From Carcharhinus amblyrhynchos (taxonomy: Eukaryota), in contig OZ336884.1 of assembly GCA_965287045.1 (NCBI GenBank), positions 54,622,001 through 54,686,000 on the forward strand: 64,000 nt of DNA, written 5' to 3'. The position numbers are program-made. The stretch's first letter is position 1. Each line of letters starts with the position of its first letter. Shown here in pieces: positions 54,001 through 57,000 of the stretch.

Positions 54001-57000
54001 TGAAGATCACAAGAAAAACAGAATGGGCTGTGACTTTGGGGCTCCCCAGCATCATATTTGGGAGGTACCCCTGTTACATGGTTCAATTATACTGCTTCAG
54101 TAACAATAAAGGATACTGATTGTAGACAAATTGGCACTGATAAAATGCCCGGATTGCTAGAAAGATCCTGTAGAGAAACATGATGAAAATACAGTTCTTA
54201 AAGGCATCATATCCCTGACCTGATCTGCCACAAACTCCTCCCTCCCCTCAGTCACAGGCACACCAAACACAATCTGATCCAACTGACACCCCCACTCTCA
54301 AGCAGGCCTGACTTTGTTCTCTCTTCCCCAATGCCCGACTACCCCCACCCCAATATCCAACCCATCCCCCCCACCAACTCAAATTTCACAGTAACTCCAT
54401 TACAATGTTAACGTAAGCCTTGAGTAATAAGTAAAAACTTTAAATCGCTGTGAACTTCAATGGCCATTTAAACTTACCTGGTTTGCAGCTGTTAAAATGG
54501 GGACATGTCCTGCTTCAATGAACAGAATGAAATCCCTACAGTGCAGAGGGAGGCCATTCAGCTCGCTGACCCCATGTGTTTACCGTGGTTAATCCATCTA
54601 ATCTACGTACCTTTGGACACCAAGGGGAAATTTAGCATAGCTAATCCATCTAACCTGCCCAATCTGACTGCTGGACAGCAACACTTTATAGAAAAGTGCT
54701 TTATAGGAAATGAAGTACTTTAGTGATGTCGTGATTGTTATACTATAAGAAACATGGTAGCCAATATGTTTAAAGCAAACAACAATGTGACAATAACCAA
54801 CTTCCTTGGAGTAGCAGTGTCAGATTGTGTTCTTTTAAGCCTGCCTCTGCTGAACTTCTGACATGATGTGGGTATGCCGGCGTTGGACTGGCGTAAACAC
54901 AGTAAAAAGCCTGACAACACCAGGTTTTAGTCCAACCTATTTATTTGATAATATACTCACAAGCTTTCGGGGTTAGTCCCTTCGTCAGGTGAATGGAGAG
55001 TTCTGGCCTCAGACAGAGCATATAAAGCACAGACAGTTTAGAGATTACTGATTAGAATGCGAATCCTTACACCTAACCTGCTGTTCAAGACCTGAAGTGG
55101 CTGATAATGTGAGTGGAAGGAGCACTGATCACAGGTTACAGAGATGTGTATTGTCTCCAGACAGTACAGTAAGTGAGGTTTTGCAAACCCAGGCAAGTCA
55201 CGGGGGTTACAGATAGTGCGACATGAACCCAAGATCCCTGTTGAGACCGTCCTCATGTGTGCGGAACTTGGTTATCAGTCTCTGTTCAGCGACTCTGCGC
55301 TGTCGTGTGTCGTGAAGGCCGCCTTGGAGAATGCTTACCCGAAGGTCAGAGGCTGAATGCCTGTGACCACTGAAGTGTTCGCCAACAGGAAGGGAACAGT
55401 CTTGCCTGGTGACTGTCGAGCGATGTTCATTGTAAGGATTCGCATTCTAATCAGTAATCTCTAAACTGTCTGTGCTTTATATGCTCTGTCTGAGGCCAGA
55501 ACTCTCCATTCACCTGACGAAGGGACTAACCCCGAAAGCTTGAGTATATTATCAAATAAATAGGTTGGACTAAAACCTGGTGTTGTCAGACTTTTTACTG
55601 AACTTCTGACATGGCCAGGTGAGGTCCAGGTAACACAGCAGTCTTCAAGGTCCAGTGTTGCTGTCCAGCAGTCGGATTGGGTGGGTTAGGTGGATTAGCC
55701 ATGCTAAATTTCCCCTTAGTGTCCAAAGATACGTAGGTTAGATGGATTAACCATGGTAAATGCATGGGGTCGGTGAGCTGAATGGCTTCCCTCTGCATTG
55801 TAGGGATTCCATTCTACGCATTGAAGCAGGACATATCCCCTTCTCGAAGCACCTTGAGGCATCGGTGGTTATAAAATCACTATACAAGTGCATTTCACCT
55901 TTTCTCTCACAACAATTAAATTTTAAAAGCCATGTTTACCAGAGATTGCAACCATAAATTTGGCTCCATGGTGTATGTACTAGCAACAATATAGATTCTG
56001 CAGTCTAATAATGCACTTGCTTGTGAAGTATGGAAAGGTAAACAAGGCATACAGTACATAACATGTTTTGTTTCCCTTAAAGATAATGCCAGTTTAACAA
56101 AACAGTTTCTGACCTAAGGAAAGAGGGTAGACTGCTTCAAAAAAGAAACATATGGGTTCACCTTACCTGTAACTTAGACACTCAGGAGGTCTTCTGTCCT
56201 GATATGGGTTATGGCGGACTTCTGATGCTTTTACAGAGCAATGTTTGTTGGAGACATATGACAGCTTAGGACTTCAGCAGAATGTGAAGTTGTGTCTAAT
56301 GTAGGTGAGGATGAGACAACTCCAACATCGATCTGCGTTTCATGGCTTGGAGATGGCTCTCTTGAAGTGGTGAAGTCAGTCTTTTCCATGAGAGATGTAT
56401 CCTTAGATTGTGCTTGACTTGGCGACAGTTGGTCAACATGTTTCTGCCAAATGAGATCATTTGTAATTTGGACTGTGCATGAATCAGGCCATGTCTAAGC
56501 AATCTCAGCAGCAGGAACACATTTAGCTCCAGTAACATAGTTACAAGCTAGAACTTCTTGTCCAAAACAGAAAATTCTTGACTTCGATCTTTGTGTTCTT
56601 CCCTCCACTTGGTCGTGCTGTTGATCTTGCACAACTTGTGGTGTTTTTGTTCATTTGGACAAATCAAAGCAAGCGTGTATTTGCCATTTTATTCGTAGAA
56701 GTAATGGTGATGCTTCAATATAGAATGTGGTGTATTTTGGTGTGGCAGCAGAAATGTGTCCAAATGCTTTTGAATGGAAGAATGTCCTCCTGTGCTCAAT
56801 TGAACTGTAGAAGTAGATAAGAACAGAGAGAATTTAGCTAAGGCTGTTTCTCACTCCCCAACACCTGGGTATTATGTGTGAGACACAAGTATCGATGTAT
56901 CACACCCAAGCTTAGAGGTAAGGAGGGGTAAAATACATCGGTCTTTTGGAATCTCTCAATTCAACTTTAGTGCTCCTGAACACACAATCACAAGCTTCTG

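What the first reader, a model, noticed from the sequence alone, without database searches (positions are those of the whole stretch)
54850..55613. Very young PLE insertion preserving the full integration footprint
Seen: on the minus strand the unit reads as an inverted tail-less 3' end, a stop-free GIY-YIG C-terminus, a 3' UTR with hammerhead, and a tail of about 34-38 nt. The arms of about 170 bp are near-identical and CpGs are intact. The flanking duplication overlaps the element by CATG at the tail and CTG at the arm. Inferred: the family was recently active, and both cut DNA ends may have primed reverse transcription on element RNA at two fixed positions, helped by short microhomology. 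This copy ties the non-coding foldbacks at 20.3, 28.1 and 38.4 kb to a GIY-YIG retroelement.
Basis: partly seen in the sequence, partly recalled or inferred. Interest (0 to 1): 0.7.

Follow-up and report, generated by a model that had tools for sequence, protein, structure and literature searches.

The report
Truncated shark Penelope-like retrotransposon insertion
This is an ordinary dead, 5'-truncated copy of a Penelope-like retrotransposon in a shark genome whose well-preserved ends fit the published model in which both cut DNA ends prime reverse transcription.

Summary
Window 54850-55613 is one insertion unit on the minus strand, flanked by an exact 16-nt duplication. It holds:
- a 170-nt inverted, tail-less copy of the element's 3' end;
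- a stop-free 74-codon remnant matching the extreme C-terminus of RT + GIY-YIG proteins of sharks, 91-92% to Mustelus asterias models;
- 3' non-coding sequence with a minimal hammerhead motif (no Rfam match);
- a 34-38-nt tail.

The arms differ by one substitution and one 2-nt indel. CpG o/e is 0.56 against 0.22 for the window. Copies at 28.1 and 20.3 kb are foldbacks of the same family, with their own duplications and a tail on one arm. The 38.4-kb copy is an older solo 3' end.

Full-length relatives carry the CX2-5CxxC linker, so the family is Neptune-type, not Poseidon (motif only, no tree).

The architecture was described in 2013 and 2021.

Possibly new, from 3 copies: 3-4-nt overlaps at junctions and a shared RTGTC target edge.

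"Very young" stays unproven because no shark genomes were searchable. The window is not human.

The parts
54850..54865 (.). Target-site duplication, copy next to the tail (3' side in element sense)
   Evidence: Exact 16-nt direct repeat with 55598-55613. Its tail-side 4 nt (CATG) could equally come from the element.
54866..54899 (-). Tail: 34-nt extension present on the forward copy only
   Evidence: Absent from the inverted arm. Present and alignable in the 28.1-kb (41 nt), 20.3-kb and 38.4-kb copies. Matches the 30-40-bp PLE 'tail' of PMC8557442 and PMC3846280.
54900..55071 (-). Forward arm: the last 172 nt of the element body (pLTR-type 3' non-coding end)
   Evidence: 98.3% identical to the reverse complement of 55431-55600.
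54955..54994 (-). Minimal type-I hammerhead motif. Predicted cleavage lies between 54961 and 54960, 61 nt upstream of the arm end and 95 nt upstream of the tail end.
   Evidence: Descriptor scan found a CTGANGA box, one extra nucleotide, helix II opening with G-C, a GAAA box, a palindromic 15.2/16.2 pair and a 6-bp helix I. There were 0 hits in 200 simulated windows. The MFE fold recovers helices I and II. No Rfam match.
55072..55206 (-). Unique part of the 3' non-coding region between the stop codon and the arm
   Evidence: Lies between the TAA at 55209-55207 and the arm. Its translation matches the read-through C-terminal extension of Mustelus model P0005, by my reading.
55207..55431 (-). 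Remnant of the GIY-YIG endonuclease C-terminus (74 codons plus the TAA stop). This is the 5'-truncation point of the forward copy.
   Evidence: tblastn of P0009, P0035, P0078 and P0153 hits only here in the window, starting at 55431-55434 (P0153 at 55389). Alignment.
55431..55600 (+). Inverted, tail-less copy of the 3' end (170 nt). Its outer 3 nt (CTG, 55598-55600) overlap the duplication. It overlaps the coding remnant by 1 nt at 55431.
55508..55545 (+). Second hammerhead motif, damaged by a 2-nt deletion at the cleavage site / helix I
   Evidence: Fails the descriptor. The deletion is seen.
55598..55613 (.). Target-site duplication, copy next to the inverted arm
28106..28361 (+). Related non-coding foldback. 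Duplication of 11-12 nt at 28106-28116(7) and 28350-28360(1). Perfect palindrome arms 28117-28212 / 28213-28308. 41-nt tail at 28309-28349.
   Evidence: 90-92% identical to the 54.8-kb copy. Both arms hold an intact hammerhead motif.
20276..20442 (-). Related short foldback. 12-nt duplication at 20276-20287 and 20431-20442. Arms of 52 nt, 11 nt apart. Tail of about 27 nt on the forward arm.
38404..38590 (+). Older (76% identical) solo 3' end with a decayed hammerhead (G8 changed to A) and a tail. A 21-nt inverted stub lies at 38390-38410.
54499..55840 (.). Context: an older inverted repeat (arms 54499-54685 and 55654-55840, 89%). The insertion sits in its 220-nt spacer.

Best explanation
The unit is a dead-on-arrival, 5'-truncated insertion of an endonuclease-bearing Penelope-like retroelement of Neptune type, in a shark genome.

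Shown:
- The anatomy: duplication, 170-nt inverted 3' end without tail, the last 74 codons of the GIY-YIG endonuclease, 3' non-coding region with a minimal hammerhead, 34-38-nt tail, duplication.
- Its homology to RT-EN proteins.
- Two sibling foldbacks in the same window, built the same way.

Inferred:
- The element's endonuclease nicked the two target strands 9-16 nt apart.
- The bottom-strand 3'-OH primed reverse transcription at the distal initiation site (the tail end). That cDNA ran 565 nt into the endonuclease coding region.
- The top-strand 3'-OH primed on a second template, or on a second pLTR of a tandem transcript, at the proximal initiation site 34-38 nt upstream. That made the 170-nt tail-less arm.
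- The two cDNAs were then joined head to head with at most 1 nt of overlap, and the gaps were filled. This produced the duplication.

The copy has no reverse transcriptase and no intact endonuclease, so it can do nothing by itself. Its hammerhead is a relic of the parent's pLTR.
For: Identity.
- The peptide hits 29 longer proteins at E<=1e-3 and 210 library representatives. The named ones are sharks.
- Full-length relatives P0035 (881 aa) and P0009 (643 aa) carry RVT_1.
- More distant relatives P0273, P0215 and P0218 carry PF01541 GIY-YIG above its cut-off.
- One search places the fragment at the extreme C-terminus.

Anatomy.

Two fixed initiation positions.
- In 3 of 3 duplication-flanked copies (54.8, 28.1 and 20.3 kb) the tail-less arm ends at ...ACTG, or 1 nt short of it.
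- In the same 3 of 3, only the other arm continues into the tail.

Priming from the top strand rather than snap-back.
- In the 54.8-kb copy the arms are separated by 359 nt of unique sequence.
- The inverted arm abuts the duplication directly at the proximal site.

Literature.
- The same architecture is described in rotifer PLEs: inverted pLTR, a 31-bp tail on one arm, a 9-bp duplication (PMC3846280, passages).
- It is also described for PLEs in general (PMC8557442, passages).
- Purified PAc protein cleaves and extends both strands. It initiates at two internal RNA sites, and the spacing between them equals the tail (PMC11167929, main text).

Hammerhead. Helix II differs in sequence but stays paired in the three lineages (3, 4 and 5 bp; the 38.4-kb helix was read by eye).
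Against: - The hammerhead has no Rfam support. The fold of the 3' end is no more stable than shuffles (z -0.57).
- The closest shark proteins miss the Pfam GIY-YIG cut-off (P0003 scores 15.8 bits against 22.6).
- The fragment alone matches no Pfam family.
- The 28.1-kb copy is a perfect palindrome with no spacer, and the 20.3-kb copy is nearly symmetric. PMC3846280 reads such junctions as self-priming, so dual-end priming may not be the whole story.
- No empty site, no conspecific genome and no full-length master copy could be examined. The true duplication length (9-16 nt) and the RNA sequence beyond the tail therefore remain unknown.
- The Neptune call rests on a motif in relatives, not on a tree.
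Confidence: 0.8

Rival explanations
1. There was one target-primed cDNA only. The inverted arm arose by self-priming (snap-back) or by a template switch of the same reverse transcriptase, not by priming from the second cut DNA end.
For: - Palindromic junctions: the 28.1-kb arms are 99% complementary with 0 nt between them, and the 20.3-kb arms are 11 nt apart.
- There is a 21-nt inverted stub at the 5' end of the 38.4-kb copy.
- Self-priming was proposed for such PLE palindromes in PMC3846280 (passage).
Against: - In the 54.8-kb copy 359 nt of unique sequence separate the arms. The inverted arm is the 3' end, not the sequence next to the truncation point.
- The inverted arm lacks the tail and ends within 1 nt of one position in 3 of 3 copies. 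Copying back along the first cDNA would not give this.
- In vitro, both strands are extended (PMC11167929).
Confidence: 0.12
2. The composite (inverted arm + truncated copy + tail) already existed elsewhere and was copied here as a unit. The copying could have been retrotransposition of a read-through transcript in trans or a DNA-level duplication.
For: - PLE pLTRs can mobilise unrelated sequence in trans (PMC3846280, passage).
- The unit has clean ends and a duplication either way.
Against: - An RNA that holds both arms would need an outside promoter.
- Such an RNA would still have to end at the tail on one side and at the tail-less site on the other.
- No second copy with this junction is in the window. 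The rest of the genome could not be searched.
Confidence: 0.05
3. It is two independent nested insertions, or an assembly artefact of a repeat that is hard to assemble.
For: PMC8557442 notes that tandem/inverted PLE structures often cause assembly problems (passage).
Against: - A single exact 16-nt duplication brackets the whole unit, and no inner duplication exists.
- The two sibling copies have the same layout, each with its own duplication.
- The window has no N.
Confidence: 0.03

Closest known systems
Canonical EN+ PLE insertion architecture, for example Pen2a_Av of Adineta vaga (PMC3846280) and Fig. 2 of PMC8557442
   Same: An inverted 5'-truncated pLTR copy lies next to the element. A 30-40-bp tail is present on one arm only. 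The target duplication is short and of variable length (8-10 bp in A. vaga). The hammerhead sits in the pLTR. 5' truncation is heavy.
   Different: Only 565 nt of the forward copy survive here, and there is no upstream direct pLTR. The apparent duplication is 16 nt, or 9 nt if the overlaps are element-derived. The host is a shark and the family is Neptune-type.
PAc, a Poseidon element of Anolis carolinensis, studied in vitro (PMC11167929)
   Same: Both strands are cut and extended. Reverse transcription starts at two internal RNA sites, and the spacing between them equals the tail. A hammerhead lies some tens of nt upstream of the start sites: 85-92 nt in PAc by my arithmetic from the paper's numbers, 61 and 95 nt here.
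   Different: PAc belongs to the Penelope/Poseidon clade, which lacks the CX2-5CxxC linker. Its start sites lie inside the ORF, and its targets are AT-rich (ATT). The paper reports no homology between the cut DNA and the start site. Here all three frames are closed between the hammerhead and the tail (my reading). The targets share RTGTC, and 3-4-nt overlaps are seen.
Minimal dimeric hammerheads of metazoan PLEs (PMC4209133)
   Same: There is no helix III loop. One unpaired nucleotide lies between positions 9 and 10.1. The 10.1-11.1 pair is G-C and the 15.2-16.2 pair is palindromic. Paired motifs on opposite strands 100-700 bp apart are mentioned there as well.
   Different: Helix II is short here (3-5 bp, against 6-8 bp in the flatworm and fly examples). 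Activity is untested.
L1 twin priming, which yields 5'-inverted L1 insertions (recalled from Ostertag and Kazazian 2001, not read here)
   Same: It works alike. The second cut DNA end also primes on element RNA, which gives an inverted segment inside one duplication-flanked insertion.
   Different: In L1 the second primer anneals at an arbitrary internal place on the same RNA, so the inverted part is a different, more 5' segment. Here the inverted part duplicates the same 3' end and starts at a fixed site. L1 uses a different endonuclease (APE type).

Membership tests
Penelope-like elements, endonuclease-bearing (EN+) | A single ORF with a PLE-type reverse transcriptase followed by a C-terminal GIY-YIG endonuclease | tested here: met
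   This copy keeps only the last 74 codons. Its homologues P0035 (881 aa) and P0009 (643 aa) carry RVT_1, with the EN motifs at the C-terminus. The DKG and YIDD motifs in P0035 were read by eye, and their names are recalled.
Penelope-like elements, endonuclease-bearing (EN+) | A GIY-YIG core with two Cys between GIY and YIG (CCHH), followed by the R, H, E and N residues | tested here: met
   The alignment shows the relatives hold GIY-like, C..C, YIG and R motifs. The window fragment starts just after the R and keeps the H, E and N region. Pfam PF01541 is above its cut-off in P0273, P0215 and P0218. It is below the cut-off in P0003 and absent for the fragment alone.
Penelope-like elements, endonuclease-bearing (EN+) | An inverted or direct pseudo-LTR copy next to the element | tested here: met
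   A 170-nt inverted copy of the 3' end lies at 55431-55600.
Penelope-like elements, endonuclease-bearing (EN+) | A 30-40-bp tail at one end of the unit only | tested here: met
   34-38 nt at 54866-54899. 41 nt in the 28.1-kb copy. Seen in 3 of 3 duplication-flanked copies.
Penelope-like elements, endonuclease-bearing (EN+) | A hammerhead motif in the pLTR | tested here: met
   The sequence motif is met: descriptor hit at 54994-54955, and 0 of 200 simulated windows gave a hit. No Rfam family matches. Self-cleavage cannot be tested here.
Neptune clade of PLEs | A CX2-5CxxC Zn-finger-like linker upstream of the GIY-YIG core, absent in Penelope/Poseidon (PMC8557442) | tested here: met
   The motif is present in 9 of the 12 relatives aligned. 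The other 3 are cut off before that region. A regex survey found it in 89 of 103 fetched proteins of 550 aa or more. The window copy itself lacks this region. Nematis also has a reduced form of the linker, and I ruled it out only by recalled host range.
Neptune clade of PLEs | The RT groups with reference Neptune elements in a phylogeny | not tested
   No named Neptune, Poseidon or Penelope reference sequences were on hand, and none of the hits carried such a name.
Penelope/Poseidon clade | No CX2-5CxxC linker between RT and EN | tested here: not met
   The linker motif is present in the relatives, so the family is not filed as Poseidon.
Non-LTR retrozymes (tandem hammerhead repeats) | Tandem head-to-tail arrays of hammerhead-bearing units | tested here: not met
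   No tandem array in the window at score 80 or above. The hammerheads here lie in inverted pairs. For the retrozyme-PLE preprint 10.64898/2026.07.22.740005, only the abstract was seen.

The most novel reading that the evidence does not exclude
In vivo, this shark Neptune family may not initiate independently of homology. The proposal has four parts:
- Its endonuclease nicks the primer strand after GACAY. RTGTC lies at the tail-side edge of 3 of 3 target duplications.
- The stagger is a constant ~9 nt. The apparent 16- and 12-nt duplications each shrink to 9 nt once the overlaps are removed.
- The two DNA 3' ends are seated on the two RNA start sites by 3-4 nt of base pairing.
- Hammerhead-cleaved RNA may sometimes be the template. 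The forward arm of the 20.3-kb copy starts within about 1 nt of the predicted cleavage site.

Probability: 0.25. Interest if true: 0.45.

Novelty: new member of a known kind. Interest (0 to 1): 0.25.

Why it matters
On its own the copy matters little. It is one more decayed PLE copy.

Its value is as a clean natural footprint. Together with two sibling copies in the same 64 kb, it shows the following in a Neptune-type element and in vivo:
- one arm starts at the tail end;
- the other arm starts about 34-41 nt upstream.

This is what the two-site, two-strand initiation seen in vitro for a Poseidon element predicts.

A genome-wide tabulation of such footprints in shark assemblies would be a cheap way to test three questions:
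- whether PLE priming uses microhomology;
- what the nick-site preference is;
- how the two cDNAs are joined.

The 2024 paper leaves these steps open.

The copy also warns annotators. Several shark gene models carry this PLE C-terminus fused to host proteins.

Tried and rejected
- Rfam at gathering score on the whole window and at E<=10 on 54700-55750 gave no hammerhead. The three weak hits (DapZ and two snoRNAs) are chance.
- Pfam on the 79-aa frame gave nothing.
- An nhmmer profile of the 7 arm sequences found no further copies in the window below E=0.3.
- tblastn of four full-length relatives found no other PLE coding remnant in the window.
- Pfam on 23 of the 26 stop-to-stop frames of 110 aa or more gave only two weak RVT_1 remnants. 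The three frames left out overlap ones that were scanned.
- A tandem-repeat search found none.
- A fold of the 3' end is not more stable than shuffles.
- An 8-bp stem joining arm and tail around the proximal start site appears in the MFE of 2 of the 3 copies folded over the full region (z -2.1 and -1.35). It never varies, so it carries no covariation evidence. The fourth sequence was cut short by my choice of coordinates.
- I checked whether the 54.8- and 20.3-kb targets are copies of one repeat. By eye their wider flanks are unrelated.
- A literature search for 'Penelope-like' with 'twin priming' returned 3 papers, judged incidental from the listing alone.

Not done:
- No structure prediction or complex prediction was run.
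- Genome contigs was not used because it holds only bacteria and archaea.
- The empty site, conspecific presence/absence, genome-wide copies and the full-length master therefore stayed unchecked.
Fig. S1B and S2 of PMC11167929 and Fig. S2 of PMC8557442 may bear on start sites and clade motifs.
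Full report
**What the window is**

The 64-kb window has 39.6% G+C, a CpG o/e of 0.22 and no N. The best named protein matches to the feature come from sharks: Mustelus asterias, Scyliorhinus torazame, Heptranchias perlo and Chiloscyllium punctatum. I take it for a shark genome, not human.

**Checking the observation**

An exact 16-nt direct repeat, CTGAACTTCTGACATG, sits at 54850-54865 and 55598-55613. 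Read on the minus strand, the 732 nt between the copies contain four parts.

- **Inverted arm.** 55600..55431 is a 170-nt inverted copy of the element's 3' end.
- **Coding remnant.** A 79-codon stop-free frame follows. Its last 74 codons (55431..55210) align to the extreme C-terminus of RT-endonuclease proteins:
  - 77% identity to P0009 residues 570-643, and 66% to P0035 residues 808-880;
  - 91-92% identity to Mustelus asterias gene models.
- **3' non-coding sequence.** This runs 307 nt. Its last 172 nt (55071..54900) form the forward arm.
- **Tail.** 54899..54866 is a 34-nt extension that the inverted arm lacks.

The arms differ by one substitution and one 2-nt indel. CpG o/e inside the unit is 0.56, against 0.22-0.25 around it.

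**The endonuclease remnant**

An alignment with 12 relatives shows where the remnant starts. It begins just after the GIY, C..C, YIG and catalytic-Arg motifs, and it keeps the H, E and N part. It is a non-functional end piece.

- Full-length relatives carry RVT_1.
- More distant relatives (P0273, P0215, P0218) pass Pfam's GIY-YIG cut-off.
- The nearest shark models do not pass it.
- The fragment alone matches nothing in Pfam.

**The hammerhead**

Rfam finds nothing. PMC4209133 (parts 1-2 of 4 read) explains that metazoan PLE hammerheads are minimal, have no helix III loop and are probably dimeric. It names four recurrent features:
- covariation between families;
- a G10.1-C11.1 pair;
- a palindromic 15.2-16.2 pair.

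A descriptor built on these features hits 54994..54955 and both arms of the 28.1-kb copy. It gave no hit in any of 200 simulated windows. Helix II differs in sequence but stays paired among the 54.8-, 28.1- and 38.4-kb lineages (the last was read by eye). The motif in the inverted arm (55508-55545) is broken by the 2-nt deletion. Activity is untested.

**Sibling copies**

Four loci in the window belong to the family.

| Locus | Layout | Duplication | Tail |
|---|---|---|---|
| 54.8 kb | Arms of 172 and 170 nt, 359 nt apart | 16 nt | 34-38 nt |
| 28.1 kb | Perfect palindrome, 96-nt arms, 0 nt apart | 11-12 nt | 41 nt |
| 20.3 kb | 52-nt arms, 11 nt apart | 12 nt | about 27 nt |
| 38.4 kb | Older solo 3' end (76% identity) with a 21-nt inverted stub | none identified | present |

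In all 3 duplication-flanked copies the tail-less arm ends at ...ACTG or 1 nt short of it. In all 3, only the other arm runs on into the tail.

**How it arose**

The architecture is the standard one for EN+ PLEs: an inverted pLTR, a tail on one arm and a short duplication (PMC3846280 and PMC8557442, passages).

PMC11167929 (main text read) shows that a purified Poseidon protein does three things:
- it cuts and extends both target strands;
- it starts reverse transcription at two internal RNA sites;
- the sequence between those sites is the tail.

The 54.8-kb copy is what that predicts. One cDNA started from the bottom strand at the distal site. A second started from the top strand at the proximal site. 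The two were joined head to head.

Snap-back self-priming was proposed for palindromic PLE junctions in PMC3846280. It cannot give the 359 nt of unique sequence between the arms here. It also cannot give a tail-less arm with a fixed end. It may still contribute to the symmetric 28.1- and 20.3-kb copies.

**Microhomology and target**

Overlaps between the duplication and the element are as follows.

| Copy | Tail junction | Arm junction |
|---|---|---|
| 54.8 kb | 4 nt (CATG) | 3 nt (CTG) |
| 20.3 kb | 3 nt (ATG) | 0 nt |
| 28.1 kb | cannot be judged | 1 nt |

Written in element sense, all 3 duplications begin with RTGTC. The 54.8- and 20.3-kb targets are identical at 9 of 11 positions in fixed register (P about 1e-4). 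By eye, their wider flanks are unrelated.

All three targets read TGTC where the tail end reads TGAC. That points to endonuclease preference rather than RNA pairing. Removing the overlaps leaves 9 nt in both evaluable copies, close to the 8-10 bp reported in rotifers. With only 3 copies, these are leads.

**Clade**

PMC8557442 (passages) states that the CX2-5CxxC linker is present in Neptune and Nematis and absent in Penelope/Poseidon. The linker is present in 9 of the 12 aligned relatives (3 are cut off before it). It is also present in 89 of 103 fetched proteins of 550 aa or more. The family is therefore Neptune-type by motif. No tree was made, for lack of named references.

**Age**

There is one substitution in 170 nt between the arms, which is 0.6% with a 95% interval of 0.01-3.3%. 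CpGs are retained. This makes the copy younger than its surroundings and than the 38.4-kb copy.

At a recalled vertebrate rate of about 1e-9 per site per year this means roughly 3 million years. The interval is very wide, and sharks may evolve more slowly. Recent activity of the family is plausible but not shown.

**Verdict**

This is a real, well-preserved but ordinary PLE insertion. The mechanism fits the evidence but is already published. Youth and the role of microhomology remain open.

Noticed in passing
54850-54865, 20276-20287, 28106-28116: In element-sense orientation all three target duplications begin with RTGTC at the tail-side edge, so the primer strand would end GACAY. The 54.8- and 20.3-kb targets match at 9 of 11 positions, although their flanks look unrelated. 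This may be an endonuclease nick-site preference.
   Followed up: partly
20288-20430: The forward arm of the 20.3-kb foldback starts within about 1 nt of the predicted hammerhead cleavage site (alignment). Run-off on a self-cleaved RNA template would give this. It is a single case.
   Followed up: no
28117-28308: The 28.1-kb copy is a perfect 192-nt palindrome (arms 99% complementary, no spacer), centred at the start of hammerhead helix I. Both arms keep intact hammerhead motifs. Dual-end priming alone does not explain why the two arms stop at the same base.
   Followed up: partly
54882-54889 and 54930-54937 (minus strand): An invariant 8-bp stem could pair the arm with the tail and put the proximal start site in its loop. 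It appears in the MFE of 2 of the 3 copies folded over the full region (z -2.1 and -1.35). It is unchanged even in the 76%-identical 38.4-kb copy. There is no covariation.
   Followed up: partly
54499-54685 and 55654-55840: The insertion lies in the 220-nt spacer of an older 187-nt inverted repeat (89% complementary). That repeat contains a ~52-nt internal repeat, and partial copies lie at about 17.0, 37.1 and 59.9 kb. Its family was not identified.
   Followed up: partly
37968-38392: Another inverted-repeat unit (60-nt arms, 93% complementary, 305 nt apart) lies directly upstream of the 38.4-kb PLE remnant. It was not identified.
   Followed up: no
49654-50178 (+) and 57113-57448 (-): Weak reverse-transcriptase (RVT_1) remnants, below Pfam's cut-off. 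They are probably decayed LINE-type elements. No host gene was recognised among the 23 long frames scanned.
   Followed up: no
proteins P0011, P0014, P0015, P0023, P0025, P0026, P0028: Shark gene models named as host proteins (XRCC5, PPP1R12A-like, FAM210B, SNAPC5, USP8, HMGCL, NOXP20-like) contain this PLE endonuclease C-terminus. This is likely annotation read-through or exonised PLE fragments.
   Followed up: no
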